Shown here piece after piece: positions 31,812 through 55,800 of a stretch of 64,000 nucleotides of DNA (position 1 is the first letter of the stretch; every line of letters starts with the position of its first letter). A program made the position numbers and the translations under genes. The stretch is from Acidimicrobiia bacterium (GTDB taxonomy: Bacteria; Actinomycetota; Acidimicrobiia; Acidimicrobiales; JANYDT01). The stretch spans positions 307 to 64,306 of the forward strand of contig JANYDT010000076.1 of NCBI GenBank assembly GCA_025359845.1, given 5' to 3'. Below the pieces are notes generated by a model. That model did not search any database and was not told the origin of the DNA. It saw nothing but the letters and a program-made list of their open reading frames with translations.

Positions 31812-33397
31812 CGAAAATCTTCATGAGCTACCGGCGCGCCGACAGTGCTTCGGCGACCACGTCGGTTCGGCTCCTGCTCGAGCGGTACTACCGCGACGAC
31901 GACATCTTCCAGGACTACGAGTCGATTCCTCCGGGCGACGAGTTCTGGCCGTGCATCGAAGGCCACATCAAGGCAGCCAACGTGCAGTTGGTCATGATCG
32001 GACCACGGTGGCTCACGGAGATGCATGCGAGCGGCGGCCGGCGCATCGACCACCCCGACGACTGGGTGGCGCGCGAAGTGGCGCTGGGCCTCGAAACCAA
32101 GACCGTGCGGGTGATCCCTGTGTTCGTCGACGGCGCCAACCCCGACACAGTCCTGAAAGCTGATCCCTTACCGGCCCGCATCCAATCGCTCATGAGCAAG
32201 AACGGTCGGACGCTGCGCGGTGACAGCCTCGAAGGCGACGTGAAGGAGCTCGTCGGTTGGATCGGCCGGAAGCGCTACGACCCCCGTGACAACCCTCGGA
32301 TCTACGCCGGGATCGGCGCGGCGGTGCTGGCGCTGGGGATCGCGATCGCGATCCCGGCGACGAGATCCTCGGGATCAGACACCGTCATCAGTCAGCCCAC
32401 AACCGCGGCACGCGCGCCCCTGCAGGTTCATCTCGCAGGCCCGACCGGATTGTTCGAGGACCGCGTCACCAGAGATCTGTATATAACCGATACGAAGGGG
32501 AACTGGGTCTACAAGCGTTCGCCCGACGGATCGACAGTTGCCGTGGCCGGTCGGGGCGAGTCGAAAATTCAGGCCTTCAGCGAGTCCGGCGTCGCCACCG
32601 ATCTATACCTCTATCGCCCCGCCGGCATCGTCAGCGCCAGCGACGGGGTGCTCTGGTTCGCGGACCACGGCATCATCCGTTTCCTTTCCAACGGCCGAAT
32701 CGCCACCGGTGCGGGCATCTACGGCCAGTCAATCTACGACGGGGACGGCGAAGCCGTCCAACGGTCGATCAACCCCAACATGTTGGCCATCGGCCCCGAC
32801 GACAGCATCTACTTCTCCGACACCGACAACCATCTCGTCCGAGTCCTCCAAGGCGGCCGTTTCCGGACCCTGGCCGGAGTAAGAGTCGACGAAAAACCCG
32901 TCGGTGGCTTCAATGGCGAAGACGGAGTCGGCACGGCTATCAAGTTGAACAGACCGTACGGAGTCGCGATTGACGCTCACGACAACCTTTACATCGCCGA
33001 CACCGAAAACAATCGAGTCCGCAAACTCTCCCTGACAACCCACCAAATTACAACCGTCGCAGGCGGCGGCACGTCATCAGCCGACGGCCCCGCCCTCCAA
33101 GTCGCGCTCGACAACCCAACCGGGGTCACTGTCGCCCCCGATGGGTCCGTTTACATCTCCGAATACGCAGGAAACCGAGTTCGTAAACTGAGCGTCGATG
33201 GTCTCTTGACGACGGTGGCCGGGAAAGACAGCGCAACGTGCAAAAGCGGGGATCGACCCGTCTCGTCTTGCACGCTCCAAGGCCCCAACACCGTGCTGGC
33301 CGCGGCCGACGGGAGCGGCATCTACATCAGCGAATACGTCGGCCACAAAGTACGCAAACTGGACCTGGACGGCAAGCTCACACTCGTTCAAGGCTGA
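31808..33397 (+). CDS. TIR domain - single TM - NHL-repeat beta-propeller protein (receptor-like)
   Basis: From the ATG overlapping the upstream stop (ATGA, 31808-31811) the protein reads MTKIFMSYRRADS...DDWVAREVALGL, a TIR_2-type signature with Glu at 32075-32077. A TM helix IYAGIGAAVLALGIAIAIPA follows the basic stretch GRKRYDPRDNPR. Repeated NHL-like blades follow (LYIADTENNRVRKL, VYISEYAGNRVRKL, IYISEYVGHKVRKL, IYFSDTDNHLVRVL). Confidence 0.8.
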   Translation: MTKIFMSYRRADSASATTSVRLLLERYYRDDDIFQDYESIPPGDEFWPCIEGHIKAANVQLVMIGPRWLTEMHASGGRRIDHPDDWVAREVALGLETKTVRVIPVFVDGANPDTVLKADPLPARIQSLMSKNGRTLRGDSLEGDVKELVGWIGRKRYDPRDNPRIYAGIGAAVLALGIAIAIPATRSSGSDTVISQPTTAARAPLQVHLAGPTGLFEDRVTRDLYITDTKGNWVYKRSPDGSTVAVAGRGESKIQAFSESGVATDLYLYRPAGIVSASDGVLWFADHGIIRFLSNGRIATGAGIYGQSIYDGDGEAVQRSINPNMLAIGPDDSIYFSDTDNHLVRVLQGGRFRTLAGVRVDEKPVGGFNGEDGVGTAIKLNRPYGVAIDAHDNLYIADTENNRVRKLSLTTHQITTVAGGGTSSADGPALQVALDNPTGVTVAPDGSVYISEYAGNRVRKLSVDGLLTTVAGKDSATCKSGDRPVSSCTLQGPNTVLAAADGSGIYISEYVGHKVRKLDLDGKLTLVQG

Positions 33398-38017: not shown

Positions 38018-38578
38018 TCAGGGCCCGAACGCCACGAGCCCCTCGAACAGTTCGCCGACGGGAAGCGAAATCGGCGGGCAGGTGAGGGCAATCGTATCGA
38101 TCGGACCGACGACTTCGAGCTGCCAGCCCCTATCGGTACGCCAGTGGTGTTCGATGCGAGGCTGGTCCTGATGCACCACGAGATAGTGCCGCAACGACTC
38201 AATGGCGAAGTAGGCGCCCCGCTTCTCGCGCTGGTCGATGTCGCGAGTCGACGGAGACAGCACCTCGGCCAAGAGGCACGGCGAGGTCTCGAAGTAGGGG
38301 TCGGCCTGCTCCTCGCAGGCGACCATCACGTCGGGATAGTAGCCCGCGTTCTCGGTCATGAGGCGCATGTCGGACGCATAGGTCCGGCACCCGTGTCGTT
38401 TGGCGACAGGGTGCAGGTGAGCGACGATCTCCATGGCAATACGGTTGTGCACGCCGCTCGTACCGGTCATTGCGAACAACACTCCACCGATCCATTCGTG
38501 ACGAATGGTCGAGTCGCGCTCGCAGCAGAGGTATTCGGTCTTGGAGATCAACTGGCGGGCGGTGTCGCTCACAGCCAC
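38018..38578 (-). CDS. Uma2 (DUF820) family endonuclease
   Basis: EYLCCERDSTIRHEWIGGVLFAMTGTSGVHNRIAMEI...YYPDVMVAC...LAEVLSPSTRDIDQREKRGAYFAIESLRHYLVV is the restriction-endonuclease-like PD-(D/E)xK pattern of Uma2. Confidence 0.75.
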   Translation of the reverse strand: MAVSDTARQLISKTEYLCCERDSTIRHEWIGGVLFAMTGTSGVHNRIAMEIVAHLHPVAKRHGCRTYASDMRLMTENAGYYPDVMVACEEQADPYFETSPCLLAEVLSPSTRDIDQREKRGAYFAIESLRHYLVVHQDQPRIEHHWRTDRGWQLEVVGPIDTIALTCPPISLPVGELFEGLVAFGP

Positions 38579-44070: not shown

Positions 44071-44952
44071 TCACACGACGGAAGTGGCGAGACGCCGCAA
44101 GTAGGCGCCGTACGAAGACTTGCCCAGTGCTTCGGCCAACACCCCGAGTTGCGTCCGGTCGATCCATCCGTTGCGATAAGCGATCTCTTCGATGCACGCG
44201 ATCTGTTCGCCTTGGCGCCGCTCCAGCACATGTACGAACTCGCTCGCTTCAAGGAGCGATTCGTGCGTACCGGTGTCGAGCCAGGCCATGCCGCGGCCCA
44301 GGGTGCTCAGCCGAGCGGTACCGGCATCGACGTAGGCGCGGTTGACATCGGTGATCTCGTACTCGTTTCGCCCTGAAGGCCGAATGCCCCGGGTGACCTC
44401 GACGACGGTGCCGTCGTAGAAGTACAAACCCGTAACCGCAAGATGAGATTTGGGGGTATCGGGCTTCTCCTCGATCGAGAGAATACGTCCCGTTGCGTCG
44501 ATTTCAGCGACGCCATAGCGCTCAGGATCGGTCACGACATAGCCGAACAACGAACAGCCACCCTCGGCCGCAACCCGATCGGCCTCGCCCCGCAGTAGGG
44601 CCGACAGACCGTGCCCATGGAACAAGTTGTCGCCGAGTACCAAGCAAACGGGCTCATCGCCGACAAAACCGGCCCCAACTATGAACGCTGCGGCAATCCC
44701 GTTCGGCTCGGGTTGCGCGGCGTACTCGAACCTCATGCCGAGATCGCCACCATCGCCGAGCAATCGCTCGAACAACGGAAGATCGTGCGGGGTCGAGATC
44801 ACGAGCACTTCGCGAATTCCGGCCAACATCAGCACCGACAACGGGTAGTAGATCATCGGCTTGTCGTACACCGGCAAGAGCTGCTTCGACACGGCCTTGG
44901 TGACTGGGTGCAACCGCGTGCCGCTGCCCCCGGCCAAGATGATCCCTCGCAT
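44071..44952 (-). CDS. rmlA: Glucose-1-phosphate thymidylyltransferase
   Basis: [54 protein letters not shown]... is highly characteristic of RmlA/RfbA. Confidence 0.92.
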
Positions 44953-45006
44953 GAGGGCGCGAGGGTAGTCCCGCGGCGCGACGAGCCCGAACGGCGCTAC
45001 TTGCGT

Positions 45007-48000
45007 CTACTCCCGAAAGCCGCTGCCGTCCTCGTAACGGAGCTGCTTCATGTTCTCGTTGACGATCTGGCGGACGTCTGAGGGGAAGTCGTCGGCTCGG
45101 TCGGCGCTCAGTTCGAGGCGAATCTCGACCGATGTCCCGTGCAGGGCGAGCAGGTGGGTGATGACCTCTTCGACGCTGCGCCGGAACTCCTTGGTGAGAT
45201 TGGCCGAATCGAGGACTACGGATGCGATGAATCTGGTCGGCGGCGCCGCGATGACGGACGTGGTCACCGAAGGCGCTCCCGCCCTCCCGTACCCTTCCGC
45301 TGTTTCGGGTCGAACGCTCACCGCGTCAGCTGGCGCCCGCTCTCGCGTGAGTTGCTGGTTGGCCGGTACGGGACGCACCAGCAGTGTGGATCCGGTTGCC
45401 GTTGCGAACGCGCCGCCGGCACTCAAACCGAGATACCGACCCGTGGTGGCGTCGTAGGCGTCGGCACAGGTGAACGAATCCATCGCCCACGTCACCGACG
45501 TTGGCGCGTTGCGGGCCGTGTCTTCGACGACTCCGATCGACGCGAGGCGTGGGAGGTAGACGTAGGTGGCGATGAGGTCCCACAGACGGCTCACCGAGAC
45601 GTGACCCTTCGCGCACTCCGGCGCCAATACGCCATCAAGCAAGGTGCGCAGCAGCACGGGCGGGTACACTGTGAAGAGCTTGGACTCGGTCACCAGTTTG
45701 TTGGCCGCCCGTATCGCCAGCCCGGCCGCCCCATCGACACGCAGCACATCGAAACCGATCGGTCCGATCGGATCGGGCTGGACCGGCACCAGCAGCCACC
45801 GGTACGCGGCGACGAGGCGAACGTCGGAGTTGCGTTGCGTCTCCTCGCGCCGAGCGCGGGCTTGCGCGATCTGCTGCACCGACAGGTCGAGTTCTTGACC
45901 CTGATCGTCGATCCACGCCCACGCCAGTTCTTCGGCCACGGCCCTTTCGAGATCGGGCAGCACCGCCTGATCGGCGGCCAGGAACACGATCATGTTGGGA
46001 TAGTCGCGAGTGCCCGAGCCGCCGGAGACAAGGATCGAGCGGGCGCTCGTCCACGCCCCCGAGTCCTGGCTGCGTTGCACGTGAGTCACGTCGGGCGCCA
46101 GCACGACAAGTCGGACTTCGGCCGTATCAGTCACGCCTTCCGGTCCCTCGGGAGCGATGTGCACCTCAGCGAAATGGCCCTTCGCCTTCGTCGCCGCGAC
46201 GAGCTTCCGCACGATCGCGGCGTGCACGACCGGCCTCTCCAACGACAACAGACGGTCAGCCCGATCACGGGCCATCCGGGTCACACCCGGTTGCGTGCCG
46301 AACCAGTAGGTGGCGTCTTCGCCGTAGAGGTACGTCGCCCGATCAGCAAGACGAGCCAGCGCGTCGCCGTACACCGAAATGGTTTGCTTCGGTAGCGCAC
46401 AACCCAGGCGTACCCTGGCCGCGTCGATGCCCCGTCCACCCCGACCGGCTCTGGGCGCCGAACCGAAGAACACCGTGCGGGCCACCCTTCTCGCCGCAGC
46501 GTATTGGCCGAGATTCTTGAACTCCTCGTCGAGCGCCCTCGACATCGACGACGGCCCGTCGACGTCGGTATCGATGATCGGTTTCCAATTGTCATCGAGG
46601 TGGCGGGTCAGCTCGGTCATCGCCCCGGCATCGTCGAGCGGGATACTGGCCGGCAGAATCAACGGTGACTGATCACCGGAATGCCATAGCACGTGGATTA
46701 CGGTGGCCATCAGCCGCAACACACCACGGGTCCGCTGGAAACGATCGAGCGTCGACCAGTCCTCGTACAGCCGCTCGAACAGTTCCGGGTGGATTGGGTA
46801 CGCGGCCCGGATCTTGGCCTCATAGTCAGGCTTGCGACACTCCGCCGGAAACTCAGGACCCTGAGACCGATAAAGGTCAGCGAACTCCCGGGCTGTCGCG
46901 TCGCGCAAGGGGAGTCTTTGTGGATCTATCGGCTGAAACAACCGTCGCTGCACAATGGCGAACGACTCCTCTGCCGTAGAGGGCCGCCAACTCGACTCCA
47001 TCCGCCCCACCACGTTGCGCAACCGCCGCAACGCTTCGCGACCACCCGGTCCACCCACTTCGTTTTCCGAACCGGCGACATCGCGGTCCGCGTCAGAACC
47101 GTCGGTCTCGCCGCGCTGCGACGCCGGCAGCGACACCACCAGTAACGCGCCGGGAGTCGCCCGCACTGCCTCGGTCAGCGCCTGCGCAAACGAGAAGTGC
47201 GTGTCGAACGTGCCCCCGACCACCACCTCGTCCTTGCCCAACAAATCACGGGCATAAGCCACCCACTCGTCGATCAGGATGAGACACGATGAGAACGCCC
47301 GCAGCAGGGCCCGCAAGTTGTCGCCAGGGTTCGTGCTCGTGCGGTCGGCCTCGGCCACGAACCGAAAGCCCTCAGCACCACCGAGCTGCCACGCCAACTC
47401 GCCCCACATGGTTCGCACGACGGTGCCGTCGGCTTTCTCGTTGGCCTGGCCCGGGCTCAACTGATTACCCACGATCACCACCCGCCGCACCGCCGGCAAC
47501 TGGCTGATGCCGACGCCTCCCAACAGGTCTTGCACATCTTGCGGGAACGCCGTCACCGCCGCACCGCTCAGCAAGTGATAGAGCGCGATCATCGAATGCG
47601 TCTTACCGCCACCGAACGTCGTTTGCAGATCGATGACCGGCGCACCGATCGCCTCGGTAGTCGAACTGACCCGGGTCGCCGCCTGCGCGAGCAACTGACG
47701 TAGCCCTTCGGTCACGAACATCCGCCGGAAGAACTCGACCGGGTCTGAGTATTCAGCGCGACCCTCGCCGGCGCGGACCTGATACAGATCGGCCGCGAAC
47801 TCGGCCATCGAGAGGCGCCGGAACTGGGTCACGTCGTCGTGGGGCACCACGACATCACGCCACGGGGTCAAGCCGGCCACTGCCGTCGACGCGACCCCCG
47901 CATCGGCGCCACGAGCCATGGCCTTGCGGGTCTGGTCTTCATAGCGGAGCCGCATCAGGTCGTCCTTCGAGCGTCCCACTTCGGTGGCTTCACGGGCGTC

Positions 48001-48357
48001 GACCGCGACCAGGACACGCTCGATCGAGTCGAGCGCCCGGTAGGCATCGTCGACGCTGAAGGTCTTGTTGTGCGCCCATCCGTTGCGAACATCGCGCCGC
48101 TCGAATACGAGGTTGCGCTCGGTGCGGCCCAGCTCCGAACGAAACGCCCCGTCCCAAGTGTCGGCCATCATCCGCAACAGGAACGACGGGTCGTCGAGCG
48201 AGAACTCGCTCAGTGGCGGCGCCGATCGCTTCGCATAGTCATTGGCCCACGTATCCGTCTTGAGCACCGTGCGCATGCGACGATCGACGTAGGGGCGCAG
48301 ACCGACGGCAAGGGCCTCGAACGCCCGCCCCACCCTGTCGCGATTGCTCAGTGCCAT
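45007..48357 (-). CDS. Swt1-like HEPN domain fused to DUF499-type P-loop ATPase
   Basis: From ATG 48357 the protein reads MALSNRDRVGRAFEALAVGLRPYVDRRM... The HEPN R-x4-H motif is RDVRNGWAHNKTF (RNGWAH = 48070-48087). Walker A is TTFGGGKTHSMIALYHL and Walker B is CLILIDEWVAY. A long C-terminal region is typical of DUF499 (1116 aa in total). Confidence 0.75.
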   Translation of the reverse strand: MALSNRDRVGRAFEALAVGLRPYVDRRMRTVLKTDTWANDYAKRSAPPLSEFSLDDPSFLLRMMADTWDGAFRSELGRTERNLVFERRDVRNGWAHNKTFSVDDAYRALDSIERVLVAVDAREATEVGRSKDDLMRLRYEDQTRKAMARGADAGVASTAVAGLTPWRDVVVPHDDVTQFRRLSMAEFAADLYQVRAGEGRAEYSDPVEFFRRMFVTEGLRQLLAQAATRVSSTTEAIGAPVIDLQTTFGGGKTHSMIALYHLLSGAAVTAFPQDVQDLLGGVGISQLPAVRRVVIVGNQLSPGQANEKADGTVVRTMWGELAWQLGGAEGFRFVAEADRTSTNPGDNLRALLRAFSSCLILIDEWVAYARDLLGKDEVVVGGTFDTHFSFAQALTEAVRATPGALLVVSLPASQRGETDGSDADRDVAGSENEVGGPGGREALRRLRNVVGRMESSWRPSTAEESFAIVQRRLFQPIDPQRLPLRDATAREFADLYRSQGPEFPAECRKPDYEAKIRAAYPIHPELFERLYEDWSTLDRFQRTRGVLRLMATVIHVLWHSGDQSPLILPASIPLDDAGAMTELTRHLDDNWKPIIDTDVDGPSSMSRALDEEFKNLGQYAAARRVARTVFFGSAPRAGRGGRGIDAARVRLGCALPKQTISVYGDALARLADRATYLYGEDATYWFGTQPGVTRMARDRADRLLSLERPVVHAAIVRKLVAATKAKGHFAEVHIAPEGPEGVTDTAEVRLVVLAPDVTHVQRSQDSGAWTSARSILVSGGSGTRDYPNMIVFLAADQAVLPDLERAVAEELAWAWIDDQGQELDLSVQQIAQARARREETQRNSDVRLVAAYRWLLVPVQPDPIGPIGFDVLRVDGAAGLAIRAANKLVTESKLFTVYPPVLLRTLLDGVLAPECAKGHVSVSRLWDLIATYVYLPRLASIGVVEDTARNAPTSVTWAMDSFTCADAYDATTGRYLGLSAGGAFATATGSTLLVRPVPANQQLTRERAPADAVSVRPETAEGYGRAGAPSVTTSVIAAPPTRFIASVVLDSANLTKEFRRSVEEVITHLLALHGTSVEIRLELSADRADDFPSDVRQIVNENMKQLRYEDGSGFRE

Positions 48358-49040
48358 GACCGTCCGCTTTCTGCCAGCTCGTTGCGAGGACGCCCGGCGC
48401 GCCACTCATCCGAATCGATCGCCACGAAACCGCGCCGAACCAACTTTGCCACCCGCGGCTGCGAACCATCGAGCGTGCGCACTACCAAACCCTCCATCGG
48501 GACTTCAGCAAACGCTGACACCCCGACAAGACGGTTCAGCCCGTCGAGACCGCCGACCACGACACCGCGATGCAGTACGGGCGCGACTGGCAAACCCATG
48601 GCGGCTGCCACCGCGTCTCGCTCGTCAATACCGGCGAACGCCCCATCGGCGCGCAACACGTCGAGCACCACCACATAATCGGTGAGGCGGTCGTAGTGGA
48701 CGGTATGGGTGAGCAGAAGCCACTCCGCATACACCGCCCGCACGCCGGCGAGCACCTCAACGAGGCGGTCGTGATGTTCGCCGATCCACGCCCGCAGCGG
48801 ACCGAGTTGGCGAGCCCGGTCCATGCCCGCCGCGCCCGAACGCAACGCGCACTTCACCACACCCTCGACCAACCACAACACCACGTTGGCACCGTCAAGT
48901 TTCTCCTCCACCAGCACCGGGCGGGAAAGCAGCTCTCTGACATTCGCGGCGTCGAGTGTCACGTCGTCGCTCGTACCGCATCCCTCAACCAGATGCGGCA
49001 CGCGAGGATACGGCGGCGGCTCGTCTCGGTGATCGCTCAT
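48348..49040 (-). CDS. ATP-dependent RNA ligase family protein (minimal nucleotidyltransferase domain)
   Basis: From ATG 49040 the protein reads MSDHRDEPPPYPRVPHL... Motif I is VEEKLDGANV, with the Lys codon at 48900-48902. AVYAEWLL (motif IIIa/IV-like) and EGLVVR / AKLVR (motif V-like) follow. The ATG overlaps the upstream stop (ATGA). Confidence 0.7.
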   Translation of the reverse strand: MSDHRDEPPPYPRVPHLVEGCGTSDDVTLDAANVRELLSRPVLVEEKLDGANVVLWLVEGVVKCALRSGAAGMDRARQLGPLRAWIGEHHDRLVEVLAGVRAVYAEWLLLTHTVHYDRLTDYVVVLDVLRADGAFAGIDERDAVAAAMGLPVAPVLHRGVVVGGLDGLNRLVGVSAFAEVPMEGLVVRTLDGSQPRVAKLVRRGFVAIDSDEWRAGRPRNELAESGRSWH

Positions 49041-49504
49041 GCGTACGCCCCCATGATGGCTTCGAGTGTCCAGACTTTGACGTCCCAACCCGCGCTTCGG
49101 GTCCGATACACGTCTCGCTCGACCAGAATGGATATGTCGCCGCCGCCCATCTGGGCGTTGCCGGCGAGATCGACGAACGACTGTCCCGTCGAGTCCCCGG
49201 CCAGAAACGCCTGCAAGAACTCCGGCCCCCAGTGAACATCGTTGATCTCCCACGGTGGCGTGCCCGTCGCAACCTTGTTCAAAAAGGTGGAGAGCGTTGT
49301 CGCCGCGCCGCGACGGTCACCGGTCTTGGCGTTGGCGATGTGTTTGCCGGTCTCGACGACCGCAGTGATCGGAATGACGAAGCGATCGCCGTCCTGGATG
49401 CGTTTCTTGAACTCGGCCGAGATCGCTTTGTGCTGCTGGTCCTTGCCGGGCACCCTCACCAACTCGCACAACACCGACGTGTCGATGAACCAGATCGTCC
49501 TCAC
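49037..49504 (-). CDS. PIN-like (predicted nuclease) protein
   Basis: 155 aa from a GTG start overlapping the ATPase stop (GTGA). The acidic/PIN-like positions are RTIWFIDTSVL, IPITAVVETG, GGGDISILVE and VKVWTLE. The assignment rests on motifs only. Confidence 0.45.
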   Translation of the reverse strand: MRTIWFIDTSVLCELVRVPGKDQQHKAISAEFKKRIQDGDRFVIPITAVVETGKHIANAKTGDRRGAATTLSTFLNKVATGTPPWEINDVHWGPEFLQAFLAGDSTGQSFVDLAGNAQMGGGDISILVERDVYRTRSAGWDVKVWTLEAIMGAYA

Positions 49505-50853
49505 GACGGGTCCAACAAATCATCGAGAAACGTCAACGCCGCGTCGACATCGACCGGCGGGCTGTCGCGCAAACGATCAGCCATAGCCGCCCGACCGAGC
49601 GAGCCCATCGCCGCGATGCGCCAGTAACCCTCAACATCAACGAGGCGACTCAGGTGGGTGCCGCCATCGTCGCCGCGCTGGCACACGATCACCGAACGAT
49701 GCTCGTCGCCATCGAGCGCATCGAGCACCGCCGGCGAATGCGCGGTGGCGAGCGCTCGAATACGGCGGCTCCGCAGCGAGGACCGGATCAACCGAACCAG
49801 AGTCACCGCTTGCGAAGCATGAAGACCGTTCTCCAACTCTTCGATCACCATTTGCGTCTGGCCGACCGCCTCATCGGCCGCCCGCACAACCGGCAACAAC
49901 GTGGCGTCGGGCGCTTGCAAGAGCGCGGTGAGAATGGCGAGGAATCGCAACGTCCCGTCCGACGCGGAGCGGGCCGACACTGCGAACTCCCGGTCGCCCA
50001 CCCGCTCGATGATCGCCAGGATCACGTCACCGAGACGAGACCTCTCGACAGTGAGATCGACAACCCGTTGCTCATTCACTTCGTCGAGCGCGCCCACCAG
50101 CAACGCCCGCACGGCGTCGTTGCTGATCAGAAGCCCAACCGCGGCCGACAAGTTGCCGGCGTCACGGCGCAGCAATGTGTCGCGCTCGTTGACGTAGGCG
50201 CGCATCTGGTTGGGGACAGGGTCAAGCACGAAAACACCTTGCAACGCAGCGATCACCTGTGCCGCAGCGAGATGGATCCGTTGGCCCGCCGCCGTTGCGG
50301 GAATGCGAGACAGAACCTGCGAGGCGAGAAGCCGCGTCGCACGAAACGACACGCTCGTCTTGGCCCCATCCCAGTGGGCGTTGATGTCGGACGAGTCGGC
50401 GTTGGGCGCATCAGTGACAAGCACTTCGCGATCCCCGATGGTGAGTCGCTCGTGAACGATTTGCAGCACCGGCTCGACTTGCACCGTGACATCCAACGTC
50501 ACGATCTTCGACTCGGTGGCGACCGTGCAGCCAAGGGTGAACACCCGCTCGCCGAACGGCGCACAACCCACCGCCCCGCCCCGCACGGATGGACCCTCAC
50601 GGCCACCGTCGAGCGCGTCACGAATATCTTCACCCGACGCCAGCCGCGCCAGTACCCACAACGCGTCAAGCGCGTTCGACTTCCCGCTTCCGTTGCGCCC
50701 CACGACCAACGTCAGATCATCGAGCGGCAGCGTCTCATTTCGATAGCTCTTGAACGAGGTGAGGCGCACCTCGGTGAGCAGCGATGGGGTGACGGTGACG
50801 GCCATGGTCAGGTCATGGCCTGCTTTGCCCAGGCTCGCGGCGATGTCCGACAC
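49501..50853 (-). CDS. ABC/SMC-type (AAA_15/21-like) ATPase
   Basis: FKSY...LVVGRNGSGKSNALDAL (Walker A), SDGTLRFLAILTALL (signature-like), VIEELENGLH (Walker B) and LATAHSPAVLDAL (H-loop). Confidence 0.8.
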   Translation of the reverse strand: MSDIAASLGKAGHDLTMAVTVTPSLLTEVRLTSFKSYRNETLPLDDLTLVVGRNGSGKSNALDALWVLARLASGEDIRDALDGGREGPSVRGGAVGCAPFGERVFTLGCTVATESKIVTLDVTVQVEPVLQIVHERLTIGDREVLVTDAPNADSSDINAHWDGAKTSVSFRATRLLASQVLSRIPATAAGQRIHLAAAQVIAALQGVFVLDPVPNQMRAYVNERDTLLRRDAGNLSAAVGLLISNDAVRALLVGALDEVNEQRVVDLTVERSRLGDVILAIIERVGDREFAVSARSASDGTLRFLAILTALLQAPDATLLPVVRAADEAVGQTQMVIEELENGLHASQAVTLVRLIRSSLRSRRIRALATAHSPAVLDALDGDEHRSVIVCQRGDDGGTHLSRLVDVEGYWRIAAMGSLGRAAMADRLRDSPPVDVDAALTFLDDLLDPS

Positions 50854-50905
50854 ATCGTGTCATCCTACGGCTCTGCCACGAACCACAGCCGACCAATCCA
50901 CGTTC

Positions 50906-51340
50906 GTGGGTGTTGCGAGTCGCCTAAACGCTTCCGCGGAAGCGCCTTGTCCCGCTCAGCGGAACGCGCCCTCGAGGCCGGCCCGTTGCCCGATTCGACC
51001 CGTTGATCGCTCGCCGGGTGACGTCTGGCTGATCGACTTCGGTGAGCCCATCGGCCGTGAACAGGCCGGTCGCCGACCCGCCGTCGTCATCACCGCTGAT
51101 GCAATGAATGACGGCCCCTCCGGGCTCGTCGTAGTCATCCCGATCACATCGACGCGTCGAGGGCTGCCATCGCACGTCGAACTCGACCACGTCGACACCG
51201 GTCTTGACACAATCAGTTACGCCAAATGCGAGGACGTGAAATCGATCTCGGAGCGGCGCCTGATCGCCCGACTGGGGTTTATTTCCGGCGTCAACCTCAT
51301 CGAGATCGAGAGAAATCTGCGCTATCTGCTCGCTCTTTAG
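50906..51340 (+). CDS. MazF/PemK-family endoribonuclease toxin (no adjacent antitoxin; start uncertain)
   Basis: GDVWLIDFGEPIGREQAGRRPAVVITAD...LVVVIPITSTRRGLPSHVEL...ISYAKCEDVKSISERRLIARLG is the MazF core. The conserved domain begins near 51015. The only in-frame start upstream is GTG 50906, which gives an atypical ~35-aa leader. Confidence 0.65.
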   Translation: MGVASRLNASAEAPCPAQRNAPSRPARCPIRPVDRSPGDVWLIDFGEPIGREQAGRRPAVVITADAMNDGPSGLVVVIPITSTRRGLPSHVELDHVDTGLDTISYAKCEDVKSISERRLIARLGFISGVNLIEIERNLRYLLAL

Positions 51341-51398
51341 CTACTTCCTCCGGACCTCGTCCTGCCGCCCGACGGTTGTTGAATGGGGGCGCAAGATG
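51224..51398 (+). repeat. Direct repeat copy A (~175 bp; mazF 3-prime end plus downstream sequence)
   Basis: aaatgcgaggacgtgaaat...gctctttagctacttcc...gacggttgttgaatgggggcgcaagatg recurs at 53358-53533. The two copies differ by a handful of substitutions and one 1-nt indel. Confidence 0.9.
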
Positions 51399-51417
51399 CC
51401 GGCCATCCACAGGGCGT

Positions 51418-52131
51418 TCACAAGCCAAGACTGCGCAGGAACTCGGATATGTCCGCAGCCTCTGCTAGTTCCGCAGGCCAGATTGCGGCCGGGTTGTCCT
51501 TCAGTGCTCGAGAGGCACTGTTCAACCGAACGAAGGGCGTCTGCCACCTCCCGGGAATGCCGGCTGTCTTGTCCAAACAATCGAAAAGCCTCGAAACGAG
51601 CCGACACGTCTCGAAGTCCCACTGCGGTCGGGCTCGGCTGTCACCCTGAGGGCTTGCAGAATGAAGCTCTCGGTAGGTGACATCTCGCCAAGCGGTGAGG
51701 TGGAAGAGGTGCACGGAGATCGAATTCTTGAACTTGGCACTTAAACACCCCGCCGCCTCGGGAGAGGGCAGATCGAAGTCCGTAACTTTAATATCCGTCG
51801 ACTTTGGGCTCTCAGCGGCGTAGAACTCAAGAAGGTTCCGAGAATGAAGAAGCAGACTATCGCGGATCATCACGCCAATTCCTGGAACGACTGAAGTCAC
51901 ACCAGCCCAGTCTTCGTTGGAACTCGATTGTTTCGCGTACCGTTCCCAAGACCCAGCGGCGACGGCAAACCAGCGATGTTCGTAGACCACGTGAACGAAC
52001 GCCTCATGGGGTCTAAGCTTTGGCAGTGTCGTCGGCGCCATACAACCAGAATAACAGCTATCCATGGCGATCACACGGGTTGGCGTTTTCGGCCAACTTC
52101 CACTAATGTCCAAGGAGCGAGTCTTGATCAT
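51418..52131 (-). CDS. Hypothetical protein (visibly lower-GC ORF)
   Basis: 237-aa ORF with ordinary amino-acid composition (FVHVVYEHRWFAVAAGSWERYAK...LLLHSRNLLEFYAAE...ISVHLFHLTAWRDVTYRELH). I recognise no motif. The DNA is noticeably A/T-richer than its neighbours. Alternative starts exist (M23, M31). Confidence 0.45.
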   Translation of the reverse strand: MIKTRSLDISGSWPKTPTRVIAMDSCYSGCMAPTTLPKLRPHEAFVHVVYEHRWFAVAAGSWERYAKQSSSNEDWAGVTSVVPGIGVMIRDSLLLHSRNLLEFYAAESPKSTDIKVTDFDLPSPEAAGCLSAKFKNSISVHLFHLTAWRDVTYRELHSASPQGDSRARPQWDFETCRLVSRLFDCLDKTAGIPGRWQTPFVRLNSASRALKDNPAAIWPAELAEAADISEFLRSLGL

Positions 52132-52218: not shown

Positions 52219-53052
52219 TCACCTGATCCCATGCCCACTCGGCCGCCGGAGGGCACATCGCCGGGTGGAACCCCACTGCGCCAGACCCCGCTCGACGGCG
52301 GCCACATCGTCGTCATCCGAACCATCGACTGCGCCAACTGTACAGCCGCGCCGGCGATGCTCGTCGGCCGATGCCGCGGGCCCGAGCCGTTGGGCGTCCC
52401 AGGCCAGGTGCGTGCTGCGACTCGACATGTAGTCGCACGACGCTGCGCCGGGTGAGCCAAGGAACAAATCGTCGCACCGCGATCTCCCATGGCGCCGGAG
52501 TAGCGCCAGGTGGAAGAGGGTCAGCCGGTCGACCGCCTTGGCGAACGCCGAGTTGCGCTGGAACCACTCGCCCAGCCCGAGCATGCGCGCCGTGCTGGCG
52601 CATTCCATGACGAAACCGGTTGGCGCCGATTCGAGCCCGTACGCCAGCATGTGCAGCAGCCACGTCGACGACGAAACCGAGCGCGCCGAGCCAGAACCCC
52701 TCCACGTAGACCGACCGGGGTTCGTGGCCGGCCAGGTAGCGCTCGTCGTCCGTTCCAGGCCATCACCCGGAGCCGGACCGGGAACTCGAACGGCCAGTCG
52801 CCTTCGGCCAATGGACCGGAGCAGCTCACACTGAATAAAAGACTGTTCGTCCAGCCGGTTCAGGTGGTCGGGCTCAATCGGCACTTGGAATGAGAGGCCC
52901 CGATCCGTCGTGGTCAGCGGTGCCACGATGACGAACGGAAGGTTGTCGCCGAATAGCTTCGACGGACCTATCAATAATGCCGGACGTCGATGGGCCGGTT
53001 CACCCGGGAACGGCTCACCGAAATCGGTGAGCCAGATCTCGTCAGGCGACAC
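52219..53052 (-). CDS. MazF/PemK-like toxin domain with ~165-aa C-terminal extension (possible read-through or fusion)
   Basis: The N-terminal ~110 aa (DEIWLTDFGEPFPGEPAHRRPALLIG...FVIVAPLTTTDRGLSFQVPIE...SFIQCELLRSIGRRRL) parallel the MazF at 50906-51340. The ORF then continues for another ~165 aa without recognisable features. Confidence 0.55.
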   Translation of the reverse strand: MSPDEIWLTDFGEPFPGEPAHRRPALLIGPSKLFGDNLPFVIVAPLTTTDRGLSFQVPIEPDHLNRLDEQSFIQCELLRSIGRRRLAVRVPGPAPGDGLERTTSATWPATNPGRSTWRGSGSARSVSSSTWLLHMLAYGLESAPTGFVMECASTARMLGLGEWFQRNSAFAKAVDRLTLFHLALLRRHGRSRCDDLFLGSPGAASCDYMSSRSTHLAWDAQRLGPAASADEHRRRGCTVGAVDGSDDDDVAAVERGLAQWGSTRRCALRRPSGHGIR

Positions 53053-53357: not shown

Positions 53358-53474
53358 AAATGCGAGGACGTGAAATGGATCTCGGAGCGGCGCCTGATCG
53401 CCCGACTGGGGTGTATTTCCGGCGTCAACCTCTTCGAGATCGAGAGAAATCTGCGCTATCTGCTCGCTCTTTAG
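53358..53474 (+). pseudogene. 3-prime remnant of a mazF gene
   Basis: It encodes KCEDVKWISERRLIARLGCISGVNLFEIERNLRYLLAL, matching the last 38 codons of the mazF at 50906-51340. The sequence upstream of 53358 has no MazF similarity. Confidence 0.75.
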
Positions 53475-53533
53475 CTACTTCCCCCAGACCTCGTTGCTGC
53501 CGCCCGACGGTTGTTGAATGGGGGCGCAAGATG
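53358..53533 (+). repeat. Direct repeat copy B (~176 bp)
   Basis: Near-identical to 51224-51398 (see copy A). Confidence 0.9.
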
Positions 53534-53579
53534 TGTGGCCACCCCAGGTCTGCGGCCAAAAACAAACTCGCCACCGCGG

Positions 53580-54752
53580 TCAAGTCATGGCCCTTCGGAT
53601 GTAGTCTCCGAACAGAGGGACCGTGAAATCGATTTCACCGTGGCGAGGCGCGAACAGCAAGCCCCGTTTGATGAGCCCGTCGCGAAGTGATCCGAGTTGG
53701 GGAGTGGTTTTGCCCAGAAGTTCCGCGACTGTACCGGACCGGTATGGACCCGCACCTCCGATTGCGGCCATGGCGCGAAGGTAGTCGCGTTCCGCATCAG
53801 TGGTGCGATCGGCCCGAGCGCGGAAGAACCCGTTATCGAGTTCTGCGAACGCGACCGGAGTTGACCGTCGAACATCGGCCGCCGTGATTCGTTCACCGCT
53901 GGCCGCAGCCCACGCTTGCTTGCCGAATTCTTGAAGAAAGTACGGGTATCCCTCCGTAAGCCGAACGACTTCGGCGAGGGCGGCAGGCGCCCACGACACG
54001 CCCTCATCGCGAGCCGGTCTCTCGAGCGCCTCCCGGGCGAGGGCCGGAGCAAGGGACCCGACGACGGAGTATGAAAACAATCGCTCGGCGTACGACTTGG
54101 CCTCACCGGCCAGTCCAGGCAGCGAGGGCAGGCCAGCGCCCGTAATCAGAAATGGCAGATTCAGCTGAGCGATACGATGGAGCCCGACGATCATCGCCGC
54201 GAACTCGATCTTCGGGAGGTATTGCATCTCGTCGATGGTGAACATGACCCCGACTGACTGTGCCTTCGCGCACTCGCCCAGTTCGCGGAATAGACCAGCC
54301 AGATCGCGGTCGAGATCGCCGGAGTCTGCGACCCCGTGAAACGGTTCCACATCAATGGAGAGGTCGCCACCAGGAGCGGTGTAGCGAACCTTCAGGAAGC
54401 TCCTCACGACCCCGAGGCCCCGACGAGCCCGCTCCTTGAACCGTCCACTCATGCTCAAGCGCAACAACGCCGTTCGAGCGGCCACCGCCAACGATCTCGC
54501 AAGGTCGATGTCTTCGGTCGCCTCAATATGCTCGTGTATCCACCGTTGCGTCTCGGCGATCCGGCCGAACTCGTTGAGCAGCACCGTCTTACCGACACCC
54601 CGGAGGCCCGTGAGGATCACGCTCCGTTCGGCCCTTCCGGCCGTCAGCCGCTGGACGGCGACACTCATTCGCTCGAGGTGTTCATCGCGGCCGACCAGCG
54701 CGGGAGGAGCGGTACCGGCCCCCGGGCTGTAAGGGTTGCGAACTGGATCCAT
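53580..54752 (-). CDS. Orphan AAA-type ATP-binding protein (Orc1/Cdc6-like or archaeal-ATPase-like) with C-terminal winged-helix-like region
   Basis: From ATG 54752 the protein reads MDPVRNPYSPGAGTAPPALVGRDEHLERM...VILTGLRGVGKTVLLNEF (Walker A)...MFTIDEMQYL (Walker B)... The C-terminal part is GTVAELLGKTTPQLGSLRDGLIKRGLL. Confidence 0.7.
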   Translation of the reverse strand: MDPVRNPYSPGAGTAPPALVGRDEHLERMSVAVQRLTAGRAERSVILTGLRGVGKTVLLNEFGRIAETQRWIHEHIEATEDIDLARSLAVAARTALLRLSMSGRFKERARRGLGVVRSFLKVRYTAPGGDLSIDVEPFHGVADSGDLDRDLAGLFRELGECAKAQSVGVMFTIDEMQYLPKIEFAAMIVGLHRIAQLNLPFLITGAGLPSLPGLAGEAKSYAERLFSYSVVGSLAPALAREALERPARDEGVSWAPAALAEVVRLTEGYPYFLQEFGKQAWAAASGERITAADVRRSTPVAFAELDNGFFRARADRTTDAERDYLRAMAAIGGAGPYRSGTVAELLGKTTPQLGSLRDGLIKRGLLFAPRHGEIDFTVPLFGDYIRRAMT

Positions 54753-55240
54753 CGCTTCTTTATAGCAGTCTGCGGCACTTATAGGGGAGATCCGTAAAAA
54801 GTCGAAAGCTTCTACAATCGAGTTATCACGGAGCGACGACTGGATGAGAGCGCGTTTCACGATCGGTGCTGCTGCCCGGGAACTCACGCAGGGTCGCGAT
54901 GAACTGACGCATTCTTGACGGCTTTTGGCTGCCGATGGATGAAGTTCATGTTCATCGCAAAGGTTTCCAACCATGTCTTCTTGAATTCTTCCTCAAGCTC
55001 CGCGCCCGGTTCTGGCAGGACGCTCAGGAGCCCACGGATCAACGGGTGTTCCATGATCTTGGGTGTGCTCGCTTGTACTCGCGATAGGCGCCTCGGGCGC
55101 CTCCGATCCGGGTTGTGAAATGGCAGCCTTCGAGCTTCCCGCCGCCGGGTTGGTGAGGCGTCCTTTTCCGTACGCGAAGAATCCGGCGGACTCTGCCGAA
55201 CGAGCGAAAGCCTGACGAGCCGTGGCGAGCTGCTTGGGGC

Positions 55241-55800
55241 TCACGCCGCCACGAAGGTCACGCCTTGGCGCAACACGTCACCGTGGCGGCGGTCGATCAC
55301 CTCGATGAGCGTGTCGATAAGCCGATGACCCGGCGCCAACAACTCGGCCGGAGTCCGTCCCCCGCGGCCGATGCGGTCGGTCTCGAACGTGACCCGTCGC
55401 CCAACGCCTTGCCCAAACGGTAACGGCGGGTCTCCGACACCTCGTTGCCATACCAATGCGCGCTCATACGATGCGCCTCGTCGACAATCACCAGATCCCA
55501 CTCGCTCACCCGCACCTGCTTCACCAACTCGTCGCTACGGGCCAAATGATCGAGCCGGGCAATCAACAGATCATGACGGGCGAACGGGTCACCGAGACGG
55601 GCCGCGTCGATCGTCTCGCTGGTCAACAACTCGTCCTGCCACTGCGCCACCAGACTGCCGGGCGCCACGACAAGGCAGCGGCGCACATCGCCGCGCAACA
55701 TCAACTCCTTCAGCAACAAGCCCGCCATGATGGTCTTGCCCGCCCCCGGATCATCAGCCAGGCAGAACCGCCCGCCAACCCGGCGACGCTGGCCCCCTTC
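55241..55800 (-). pseudogene. Decayed SNF2/DEAD-like helicase remnant
   Basis: The minus-strand fragments are LADDPGAGKTIMAGLLLKELMLRGDVRRCLVVAPGSLVAQWQDEL and WDLVIVDEAHRM (motifs I and II). A frame break lies just upstream of the Walker A. The sequence then jumps to a C-terminal-like piece (ELLAPGHRLIDTLIEVIDRRHGDVLRQG). No helicase C-terminal (motif IV-VI) region is present. Confidence 0.6.

What the first reader, a model, noticed from the sequence alone, without database searches (positions are those of the whole stretch)
45007..50853. Translationally coupled ABC-ATPase / PIN-like / RNA ligase / HEPN-DUF499 four-gene operon: candidate RNA-targeting and RNA-repair conflict system
Seen: the four minus-strand ORFs have essentially no intergenic space. 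The ATPase stop and PIN-like start share GTGA (49501-49504). The PIN-like stop and ligase start share ATGA (49037-49040). The ligase stop and the large-protein ATG are 4 nt apart (48348-48357). ATPase motifs: GRNGSGKSN, SDGTLRFLAILTAL, VIEELENGLH, ATAHSP. PIN-like motifs: IWFIDTSVL, AVVETG, GGGDISILVE. Ligase motifs: YPRVPHL and the K-x-DG motif EEKLDGANV (Lys codon 48900-48902). Large-protein motifs: R-x4-H motif RNGWAH (48070-48087), then the P-loop FGGGKTHS and Walker B LILIDEWVAY. Established: Swt1-like HEPN fused to DUF499 ATPases has been noted before, but as far as I recall next to a DUF1156 methyltransferase and a helicase (Hma-type loci). K-x-DG is the adenylylation site of ATP-dependent ligases. 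PIN and HEPN are RNase folds. Inference: two predicted RNases, two NTPases and an RNA ligase sit in one coupled unit. That suggests a cleave-and-reseal RNA module, either abortive-infection-like or a toxin plus repair/immunity arrangement. It differs from Septu, PARIS, Gabija and Hma, which share only the ATPase class or the DUF499 component with it.
Basis: partly seen in the sequence, partly recalled or inferred. Interest (0 to 1): 0.85.

Follow-up and report, generated by a model that had tools for sequence, protein, structure and literature searches.

The report
ATPase–PIN–RNA ligase cassette in decayed Hma
The four tightly packed genes are real, but they are two units: a widespread candidate anti-phage cassette (sensor ATPase, PIN RNase and a small RNA ligase) sitting inside the remains of a known restriction-like system (Hma), of which only the HEPN-DUF499 ATPase survives intact.

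Summary
The 155-aa protein folds as a VapC-type PIN domain. The 230-aa protein is a minimal RNA-ligase nucleotidyltransferase.

The four genes are not one new system. The ATPase and PIN genes are the untested PADLOC candidate PDC-M07. The large protein is HmaC of the Hma (Type-1 BREX-related) system. In relatives the order is HmaA helicase, HmaB methylase, ATPase, PIN, ligase, HmaC. Here HmaB is gone and HmaA is a 550-nt relic.

The conserved unit is the ATPase-PIN-ligase cassette. Sixty-five of 80 ligase-seeded genome loci have the ATPase directly upstream. About half of PDC-M07 loci carry the ligase, as a coherent clade. Most distant cassettes are HEC-03, a validated defence system.

A PIN + ligase + ATPase (+HNH) conflict system was predicted in 2016, apparently the same kind, but PADLOC and the Hma and BREX papers do not mention a ligase.

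"Cleave and reseal" fits PIN and ligase but not HEPN and ligase. It is untested. A probable relative of the ligase adenylylates itself but did not seal standard ends. This is a new variant of a known kind, of moderate interest.

The parts
49501..50853 (-). OLD/AbiEii-type ABC ATPase (PADLOC PDC-M07A). It is the predicted sensor and controller of the PIN effector. The likely true start is the ATG at 50805.
   Evidence: Pfam AAA_21 3e-23, AAA_15 6e-15. PADLOC PDC-M07A 7e-141, HEC-01A 1e-28, AriA 7e-24. Walker A GRNGSGKSN at 50674-50700; signature, Walker B and H-loop motifs located. dN/dS 0.08 against L170.
49037..49504 (-). 155-aa VapC-like PIN-domain protein (PADLOC PDC-M07B), the predicted metal-dependent RNase effector.
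   Evidence: PDC-M07B 5e-47. No Pfam hit. AlphaFold2 model pLDDT 96.5, pTM 0.90. Foldseek PDB top hits are VapC (5x3t_B, E 2.4e-3, TM 0.59/0.66), FitB, VapC20 and SMG6 PIN. D8, E51 and D123 are invariant in 50 homologues.
48348..49040 (-). 230-aa minimal ATP-dependent RNA-ligase-type nucleotidyltransferase (PF09414). It has no OB or C-terminal substrate-binding domain.
   Evidence: Pfam RNA_ligase 3e-19. No PADLOC model matches. Invariant in 25 homologues: K47/D49/G50 (motif I), R67, E183/G184/R188 (motif IV), K199 (motif V); E106 (motif III) is at least 90% conserved. Model pLDDT 89. Foldseek ranks RNA ligases first (NgrRnl 2.5e-7, T4 Rnl2, archaeal Rnl3, REL1, T4 Rnl1), then DNA ligases.
45007..48357 (-). 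HmaC: an N-terminal Swt1-like HEPN RNase domain (about 47998-48327; R-x4-H at 48070-48087) fused to a DUF499 STAND/ORC-like ATPase. It is the core ATPase of Hma (Type-1 BREX-related) systems. The ORF is intact.
   Evidence: Pfam HEPN_Swt1 3e-28 and DUF499 7e-23. PADLOC HmaC 7e-265 over residues 163-1109. 66% amino-acid identity over 1,104 aligned codons to L006 HmaC (tblastn covers the whole length). dN/dS 0.05 (N part) and 0.12 (C part) against L170.
55214..55767 (-). Relic of the HmaA SNF2 helicase-nuclease gene: two fragments with an internal deletion of roughly 500 codons.
   Evidence: tblastn: HmaA residues 129-265 of L010 match 55767-55387 at 66% identity, and residues 778-838 match 55396-55214. 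Pfam SNF2-rel_dom and ResIII on ORF 55297-55728. No HmaB (DUF1156) match anywhere in the 64-kb window.
51418..52131 (-). 237-aa ORF of unknown function between the lost methylase position and the ATPase. It is conserved in the syntenic relative and may be another embedded gene.
   Evidence: No Pfam, PADLOC or NCBIfam hit. 60% amino-acid identity to an ORF that lies between the HmaB remnant and the cassette in L170.

Best explanation
Identity (shown). The locus is a three-gene cassette inserted between the methylase and the ATPase gene of an Hma (Type-1 BREX-related) restriction-like system. The cassette is an ABC ATPase, a VapC-like PIN RNase and a minimal RNA ligase, that is, PADLOC candidate PDC-M07 plus a ligase. 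In this genome the Hma system has decayed. The DUF1156 methylase is gone and the helicase-nuclease is a fragment. Only the HEPN-DUF499 ATPase (HmaC) is intact. It remains translationally coupled to the cassette and under purifying selection.

Mechanism (inferred). The logic resembles PARIS, OLD and PrrC. The ABC ATPase holds the PIN nuclease inactive and releases it on a phage cue, plausibly an anti-restriction factor aimed at the surrounding restriction system. The PIN domain then nicks tRNA or rRNA and stops translation. The co-inherited ligase acts on the 5'-phosphate/3'-OH ends that metal-dependent PIN nucleases leave. It would serve as a catalytic safety or reset that buffers leaky activation and allows recovery. 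The HEPN domain of HmaC is a separate backup RNase whose products this ligase could not seal.
For: Family matches: PDC-M07A 7e-141, PDC-M07B 5e-47, HmaC 7e-265.

The full arrangement HmaA-HmaB-ATPase-PIN-ligase-HEPN-DUF499 is seen in L006, L010, L011, L090, L092, L100, L118, L120 and L161.

The window holds an HmaA relic and no HmaB. Its syntenic relative L170 keeps HmaB in at least four frame pieces.

An ATPase lies directly upstream of the ligase in 65 of 80 genome loci, with a 150-200-aa ORF filling the gap in 58. Of 44 such ORFs, 43 match the HEC-03 PIN model.

In PIN-seeded metagenome loci the ATPase is present in 70 of 70 and the ligase in 35 of 66. Ligase presence follows the PIN tree: the nearest neighbour has the same state in 93% of cases, against 56% at random.

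The PIN fold and the invariant D/E/D triad are confirmed. The ligase fold and catalytic motifs are confirmed.

Ligase relatives outside the cassette are coupled to an HD phosphoesterase + P-loop kinase end-healing protein (L043, L085, L087). This is the HD-Pnk/ligase repair arrangement described in PMC6097658. So the family's background is end sealing, and the cassette conspicuously lacks a healing enzyme.

The two-gene HEC-03 protects E. coli, needs both genes and is toxic when induced (preprint 10.1101/2024.01.29.577857).

dN/dS is 0.05-0.20 for all four genes against L170.
Against: No biochemical data exist for any gene in this locus.

The Runella ligase encoded next to HD-Pnk is probably a relative of this ligase; the link rests on gene arrangement and was not tested by sequence. 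It forms ligase-AMP but sealed none of the 3'-OH/5'-PO4 DNA or RNA substrates tried (PMC6097658). Simple nick resealing is therefore not assured.

The ligase lacks any substrate-binding domain.

The ligase is dispensable for defence in the tested HEC-03 and is absent from about half of PDC-M07 loci.

In some distant cassettes an HNH DNase follows the ligase. That could mean the ligase acts on DNA, or as part of the effector arm.

The end chemistry of this PIN family is assumed from PIN nucleases in general.

The closest relative shows frameshifts in the PIN and ligase genes and an 830-nt deletion in HmaC, so the locus may be on its way out.
Confidence: 0.6

Rival explanations
1. The four genes have become one autonomous RNA-targeting system. 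The DUF499 ATPase and the ABC ATPase sense infection. HEPN and PIN cut RNA with two different chemistries. The ligase provides host immunity or reset. The unit no longer needs the Hma methylase or helicase.
For: The 10-nt ligase/HmaC overlap is conserved through the Hma-embedded subclade. All four ORFs are intact, with dN/dS 0.05-0.20, despite loss of HmaB and HmaA. A second, 65%-identical locus (L091) has the four genes with no HmaB in the 909 nt upstream.
Against: The cassette occurs mostly without HEPN-DUF499: HEPN or DUF499 was found in only 10 of 43 PIN-seeded loci with room, and among the 80 ligase-seeded genome loci only in L010 and L011. HEPN-DUF499 occurs in 1,370 taxa as part of ordinary Hma/Type-1 BR systems (PMC12839542). 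Wherever contigs extend, relatives have HmaA and HmaB. The selection estimate averages over time before the losses. The syntenic relative is losing HmaC.
Confidence: 0.15
2. The ligase is part of the attack rather than an antidote. After activation it adenylylates, circularises or mis-joins cleaved RNA (or nicked DNA). The damage then cannot be repaired by phage RNA-repair enzymes.
For: The ligase is co-inherited with nucleases, and in some cassettes it is followed by a coupled HNH nuclease. A probable relative adenylylates but does not seal standard nicks. The domain is minimal and would depend on partner proteins for its substrate.
Against: Non-cassette relatives sit in end-healing and sealing repair operons. 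The only published reading I could reach is that the ligase neutralises the nucleases; it is reported second-hand in PMC5499597. Two-gene versions defend without a ligase and are toxic when over-expressed, which fits a buffering role better.
Confidence: 0.15
3. The locus is a non-functional leftover of a decaying defence island, and the tight gene packing is only inherited structure.
For: HmaA is a fragment and HmaB is absent. In L170, HmaB is frameshifted, the PIN and ligase genes each carry a 1-nt deletion, and HmaC has an 830-nt deletion. The upstream flank differs between close relatives.
Against: In the window all four ORFs are full length with every catalytic motif. dN/dS of 0.05-0.20 is like that of the neighbouring housekeeping rmlA at 0.10.
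Confidence: 0.1

Closest known systems
PADLOC PDC-M07 (untested two-gene phage defence candidate; Payne et al. preprint 10.1101/2024.01.29.577857)
   Same: The window's ATPase and 155-aa protein match the PDC-M07A and PDC-M07B models at 7e-141 and 5e-47. They are adjacent and overlapping.
   Different: PDC-M07 is defined with two genes. No PADLOC model matches the ligase. Yet about half of the family members sampled carry the ligase as a third, coupled gene.
HEC-03 (ABC ATPase + VapC-like PIN; validated in E. coli in the same preprint)
   Same: Same architecture and the same habit of sitting inside Hma. Most ligase-linked cassettes in other phyla are HEC-03 by sequence: 43 of 44 middle genes, and the L083 ATPase at 5e-89.
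   Different: The window's PIN protein did not match the HEC-03 PIN model. No HEC-03 model appears among the 25 ATPase matches shown out of 90. A profile comparison of the two PIN families aligned only the N-terminal DT(S/N)V motif. HEC-03 was tested and described as a two-gene system without a ligase.
Hma / DUF499-centred Type-1 BREX-related system (Payne 2021; Anantharaman 2013, PMC3710099; PMC12839542)
   Same: HmaC with the N-terminal Swt1-like HEPN domain is the typical core ATPase. Relatives carry the full helicase-methylase-ATPase set around the cassette.
   Different: Here the methylase is absent and the helicase-nuclease is a relic, so this is not a complete Hma system.
PIN + RNA ligase + ATPase + HNH conflict system predicted by Burroughs & Aravind 2016 (known to me only through the summary in PMC5499597)
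   Same: It combines a PIN domain, an ATPase and an RNA ligase, with the proposal that the ligase neutralises the nucleases. Distant cassettes found here do carry a coupled HNH gene after the ligase.
   Different: The window has no HNH gene. Its PIN domain has no Pfam PIN_3 match. I could not read the primary paper, so whether the systems are identical is unverified.
PARIS (AriA/AriB), OLD, and PrrC embedded in EcoprrI
   Same: An ABC ATPase sensor controls a nuclease that cuts tRNA. PrrC is likewise embedded in a restriction system and is triggered by an anti-restriction factor (background). There is a weak AriA match at 7e-24.
   Different: The effector here is PIN, not TOPRIM or HEPN. In the T4/PrrC case the RNA ligase belongs to the phage; here the host cassette encodes it.
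HD-Pnk + ATP-dependent ligase repair operon (Runella slithyformis; PMC6097658)
   Same: Ligase relatives found with the window's ligase as query have an overlapping downstream HD + P-loop kinase gene, exactly as described for Runella.
   Different: The window's cassette has no end-healing enzyme. Its partners are a PIN nuclease and an ABC ATPase.

Membership tests
Hma / Type-1 BREX-related system | DUF499 AAA+ ATPase (HmaC), often with an N-terminal HEPN domain | tested here: met
   PADLOC HmaC 7e-265; Pfam DUF499 7e-23 and HEPN_Swt1 3e-28.
Hma / Type-1 BREX-related system | DUF1156 N6-adenine methyltransferase (HmaB) in the locus | tested here: not met
   tblastn with four HmaB proteins finds nothing in the 64-kb window. 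HmaB is present in relatives and, frameshifted, in syntenic L170.
Hma / Type-1 BREX-related system | Intact SNF2 helicase-nuclease (HmaA) | tested here: not met
   Only two fragments at 55214-55767, covering about 200 of roughly 1,150 residues.
PADLOC PDC-M07 | Adjacent PDC-M07A ATPase and PDC-M07B small protein | tested here: met
   7e-141 and 5e-47; the genes overlap by 4 nt.
PADLOC PDC-M07 | Demonstrated anti-phage activity | not testable with these tools
   PDC systems are untested candidates according to the preprint.
HEC-03 | Sequence match to the HEC-03 ATPase and PIN models | tested here: not met
   The window's PIN protein matches only PDC-M07B models. No HEC-03 model is among the 25 ATPase matches shown out of 90. 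The architecture is the same.
PIN-domain (VapC-like) nuclease | PIN fold with conserved acidic active-site residues | tested here: met
   Model pLDDT 96.5. VapC, FitB and SMG6 PIN domains are the top PDB matches, probability 1.00, TM 0.5-0.68. D8, E51 and D123 are invariant.
PIN-domain (VapC-like) nuclease | Cognate VapB-type antitoxin gene upstream (type II toxin-antitoxin membership) | tested here: not met
   The upstream gene is the 450-aa ABC ATPase.
ATP-dependent RNA ligase (PF09414; Rnl2/Rnl5-like) | Nucleotidyltransferase motifs I (KxDG), III, IV and V | tested here: met
   K47/D49/G50, E183/G184 and K199 are invariant in 25 homologues; E106 is at least 90% conserved. The RNA-ligase fold ranks first.
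ATP-dependent RNA ligase (PF09414; Rnl2/Rnl5-like) | Accessory OB, N-terminal or C-terminal domain needed for nick recognition in Rnl2, Rnl5 and Rnl3 | tested here: not met
   The 230-aa protein is the adenylyltransferase domain alone. It covers only about 0.35-0.5 of the target length in matches.
ATP-dependent RNA ligase (PF09414; Rnl2/Rnl5-like) | Self-adenylylation and strand-sealing activity | not testable with these tools
   A probable relative (Runella) adenylylates but sealed no tested substrate.
PARIS | AriB TOPRIM effector paired with the AriA ATPase | tested here: not met
   Only a weak AriA match at 7e-24. The partner protein is PIN, not TOPRIM.
Burroughs-Aravind PIN-ligase-ATPase-HNH system | HNH nuclease gene in the operon | tested here: not met
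   Absent in the window. Present after the ligase in L047 and L048 (HNH_2, about 1e-12), in their homologue in L024, and in L061 (HNH).

The most novel reading that the evidence does not exclude
A host-encoded RNA ligase is a built-in catalytic antitoxin for ABC-ATPase/PIN abortive-infection modules (PDC-M07 and the validated HEC-03). It would make translation shut-off reversible. In the clade represented here, the cassette plus HEPN-DUF499 has become a self-sufficient four-gene RNA-targeting system that outlives the loss of the Hma methylase and helicase. It would pair a resealable PIN cut with a non-resealable HEPN cut.
Probability: 0.15. Interest if true: 0.75.

Novelty: new variant of a known kind. 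Interest (0 to 1): 0.5.

Why it matters
ABC-ATPase plus nuclease modules that cut tRNA (PARIS, OLD, PrrC, retron-Septu) are now a central theme in phage defence. In the classic case the RNA ligase belongs to the phage, which uses it to undo the damage.

This work shows that one clade of minimal RNA ligases is tied to ATPase-PIN defence cassettes of two families in the 80 closest of at least 564 matching genome loci, which span many phyla. One of those families is experimentally validated. The gene is missing from the PADLOC models and is not mentioned in the Hma or BREX-related papers I could read.

If the ligase reverses PIN damage, it would be an enzymatic antitoxin that makes 'abortive' defence reversible. 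That is easy to test with the existing HEC-03 constructs. The locus also documents how an Hma system erodes while its embedded cassette and the HEPN-ATPase persist.

Tried and rejected
- A profile-profile comparison of the PDC-M07B-type and HEC-03-type PIN proteins aligned only the N-terminal DT(S/N)V motif (probability 16%). Homology between the two PIN families therefore rests on fold and architecture, not sequence.
- Sequence searches of the PDB were uninformative for both the ligase profile (best E 0.09) and the PIN profile. Structure prediction was needed.
- A search of complete E. coli genomes with the Lelliottia cassette found nothing.
- The promoter and terminator scan of 44800-51500 gave no more sites than shuffled sequence.
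- No tRNA genes flank the island.
- Only 7 weak ligase relatives were found in viral contigs, mostly on jumbo-phage-sized contigs. None was examined for a cassette.
- Burroughs & Aravind 2016 could not be read, and Krishnan 2020 did not turn up in the library search. Prior description of the ligase association is therefore judged only second-hand.
- The dN/dS of 1.97 for the C-terminal part of HmaC was a reading-frame error of mine. The corrected value is 0.12. The o237 value has the same flaw and is not used.
- I considered a standalone HEPN variant in L004 and L005. DUF499 fragments follow in other frames, so it is a frameshifted HmaC.
- I considered a TOPRIM fold for the small protein, because HEC-01A is the next-best ATPase match. 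The model and fold search rule that out.

Full report
OBSERVATION

The four minus-strand ORFs are present as described: ATPase 49501-50853, small protein 49037-49504, ligase 48348-49040, large protein 45007-48357. The ATPase stop and PIN start share GTGA. The PIN stop and ligase start share ATGA. The ligase and the large gene overlap by 10 nt (ATGGCACTGA). Every quoted motif lies at the quoted position, including the K47 codon at 48900-48902 and RNGWAH at 48070-48087. The ATPase more likely starts at the ATG at 50805, because family models align from residue 25.

WHAT EACH GENE IS

- ATPase. Pfam AAA_21/AAA_15. PADLOC PDC-M07A at 7e-141, with weaker matches to HEC-01A and AriA.
- The 155-aa protein. 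It has no Pfam hit but matches PDC-M07B at 5e-47. An AlphaFold2 model built on 50 homologues has pLDDT 96.5. Its best PDB matches are VapC, FitB, VapC20 and SMG6 PIN domains. D8, E51 and D123 are invariant. The PIN call is confirmed.
- The 230-aa protein. It matches PF09414 at 3e-19 and no PADLOC model. Motif I (K47-x-D-G), IV and V residues are invariant in 25 homologues, and the motif III glutamate is at least 90% conserved. The model (pLDDT 89) matches RNA ligases first (Naegleria Rnl, T4 Rnl2, archaeal Rnl3, REL1, T4 Rnl1) and DNA ligases after. It is the adenylyltransferase domain alone.
- The large protein. HEPN_Swt1 plus DUF499, and PADLOC HmaC at 7e-265.

CONTEXT IN THE WINDOW

Downstream lie the housekeeping genes rmlA, an SDR, rmlD and a GT2. 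Upstream lie a 237-aa unknown ORF, a MazF-like ORF, an AAA_16 ATPase and an SNF2 fragment. tblastn with HmaA and HmaB proteins from related loci gives two results. The SNF2 fragment is a relic of HmaA: residues 129-265 and 778-838 map to 55214-55767. No HmaB exists in the 64 kb.

RELATED LOCI

The nearest ligase homologues sit in loci ordered helicase, DUF1156 methylase, ATPase, PIN, ligase, HEPN-DUF499 (L006; L010, L011 and L012; L090, L092, L098, L100, L118, L120 and L161). This is the 'embedding' of a cassette inside Hma described by Payne et al. (preprint 10.1101/2024.01.29.577857). That preprint found ABC-ATPase cassettes to be the commonest Hma-embedded genes. PMC12839542 renames Hma as a DUF499-centred Type-1 BREX-related system. 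It notes HEPN-fused DUF499 in 1,370 taxa, and OLD-type ABC ATPases paired with PIN as embedded backup effectors. Neither paper mentions a ligase.

THE CONSERVED UNIT

A genome scan seeded on the ligase found at least 564 matching loci, and the 80 closest span many phyla. Of those 80:
- 65 have an ABC ATPase immediately upstream.
- 58 have a 150-200-aa ORF filling the gap exactly.
- 5 of the remaining 15 simply lack upstream sequence.

Of 44 such middle ORFs outside the window's own family, 43 match the PADLOC model for the HEC-03 PIN subunit. The L083 ATPase matches the HEC-03 ATPase model at 5e-89. This PADLOC copy labels the HEC-03 models A and B the opposite way round from the preprint text.

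HEC-03 is experimentally validated in E. coli. Both genes are required, and it is toxic when induced.

A metagenome scan seeded on the PIN protein gave the ATPase upstream in 70 of 70 loci, the ligase downstream in 35 of 66, and HEPN or DUF499 in 10 of 43. Ligase presence follows the PIN tree: the nearest neighbour shares the state in 93% of cases, against 56% at random. The Hma-embedded loci form a subclade inside the ligase-bearing clade. So the ligase is a stable, lineage-specific third gene of ATPase-PIN cassettes, and Hma embedding is secondary.

In some distant cassettes a coupled HNH nuclease follows the ligase. That matches a system Burroughs & Aravind (2016) proposed, as summarised in PMC5499597: PIN, ligase, ATPase and HNH, with the ligase neutralising the nucleases. 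I could not read the primary paper.

WHAT THE LIGASE'S OTHER RELATIVES DO

Ligase relatives without an ATPase-PIN pair (L043, L085, L087) are followed by an overlapping gene for an HD phosphoesterase fused to a P-loop kinase. This is the HD-Pnk/ligase repair arrangement described for Runella slithyformis (PMC6097658). It places the family in end-healing and sealing repair.

The same paper reports that the Runella ligase forms ligase-AMP but sealed none of the 3'-OH/5'-PO4 substrates tried. That is a real caution. The link between the Runella enzyme and this family rests on gene arrangement, not on a sequence comparison.

STATE OF THE LOCUS

L170 is a syntenic contig, 89% identical over the cassette and 94.6% over the rml cluster. 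It carries, in order:
- HmaB in at least four frame pieces;
- a homologue of the 237-aa ORF;
- an inserted Schlafen/AlbA_2 gene and a ParA-like gene;
- the ATPase;
- the PIN and ligase genes, each with a 1-nt deletion;
- HmaC with an 830-nt internal deletion.

The ancestor therefore had HmaA, HmaB, the 237-aa gene, ATPase, PIN, ligase and HmaC next to the rml genes. The two lineages are eroding it differently.

In the window the four genes are intact. dN/dS against L170 is 0.05-0.20, compared with 0.10 for rmlA. Against L006 it is 0.17-0.31. L091 is a second locus with the four genes and no HmaB in the 909 nt upstream.

MECHANISM (INFERRED)

By analogy with PARIS, OLD and PrrC, the ABC ATPase senses a phage cue and controls the PIN RNase, which would cut tRNA or rRNA. 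Metal-dependent PIN nucleases leave 5'-phosphate/3'-OH ends, which are the substrate of ATP-dependent ligases (established knowledge, not tested for this family). The cassette lacks any end-healing enzyme, unlike the ligase's repair-operon relatives. This fits a PIN-ligase cleave-and-reseal pair in which the ligase buffers leakage and allows recovery.

HEPN RNases leave 2',3'-cyclic phosphate/5'-OH ends (established knowledge), which this ligase could not join. HEPN-DUF499 is therefore a separate layer.

Three rival readings cannot be excluded: the ligase as part of the effector arm, the four genes as a newly autonomous unit, and simple decay.

VERDICT

The locus is PDC-M07 plus a ligase inside a decayed Hma system. 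It is a new variant of known kinds rather than a new system. The useful new point is the broad, specific and uncatalogued link between this minimal ligase clade and ATPase-PIN defence cassettes. That link is directly testable.

Noticed in passing
window 51224-51413 and 53358-53548: A direct repeat of about 190 nt (96% and 87% identity in two blocks), spaced 2,134 nt apart. Each copy lies just 3' of a minus-strand ORF (the 237-aa ORF and the AAA_16 ATPase). It may mark a segmental insertion or duplication in the region that replaced HmaB.
   Followed up: partly
window 52219-53052 and 53580-54974 (minus strand): A 277-aa ORF in which only the first 90 or so residues match MazF/PemK; the rest looks like read-through. 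A 464-aa AAA_16/ORC-like ATPase also lies between the HmaA relic and the cassette. This may be another inserted conflict module.
   Followed up: partly
window 28536-31811 and 31568-33397 (plus strand): A 1,091-aa protein with a C-terminal SLOG (LD_cluster2) domain, followed by a TIR + NHL-repeat protein. This looks like a separate conflict or signalling pair about 15 kb away.
   Followed up: no
window 38018-38578 (minus strand): A Uma2-family putative restriction endonuclease. It is conserved at the same place in syntenic L170.
   Followed up: no
L170 4083-6244: In the closest syntenic relative, a Schlafen/AlbA_2-HATPase_c_4 gene and a ParA-like ATPase gene are inserted directly upstream of the cassette's ATPase. 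The window has nothing there, so this spot turns over quickly.
   Followed up: partly
window 46398-47227 versus L170: Synonymous divergence between the window and L170 is 0.38-0.44 for the ATPase, the ligase and the HmaC N-terminal part. It is only 0.20 for the HmaC C-terminal part and 0.16 for rmlA. The change coincides with the 830-nt deletion point and suggests a recombination breakpoint inside HmaC.
   Followed up: partly
L042 7244-10666: In a high-GC MAG labelled Klebsiella pneumoniae, the ATPase C-terminal half, DUF3696 and the RNA ligase lie in one ORF with only about 64 residues between them and no PIN gene. The ATPase N-terminal half is in another frame. This is either a decayed locus or an ATPase-ligase fusion.
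   Followed up: partly
L047 10694-11449, L048 10678-11442, L024 2009-2752, L061 10748-11548: An HNH endonuclease gene is coupled directly after the ligase in some HEC-03-type cassettes.
   Followed up: partly
L043 10763-11881, L085 6335-7465, L087 10761-11882: Ligase relatives without ATPase-PIN are followed by an overlapping gene for an HD phosphoesterase + AAA_33 kinase, the HD-Pnk-type end-healing enzyme. In L032 a Macro-domain gene lies next to the ligase.
   Followed up: partly
PADLOC models PDLC04147 and PDLC04148: In this PADLOC copy the 159-position model labelled HEC-03A matches the small PIN protein and the 458-position model labelled HEC-03B matches the ATPase. This is the reverse of the A/B usage in the preprint text.
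   Followed up: no
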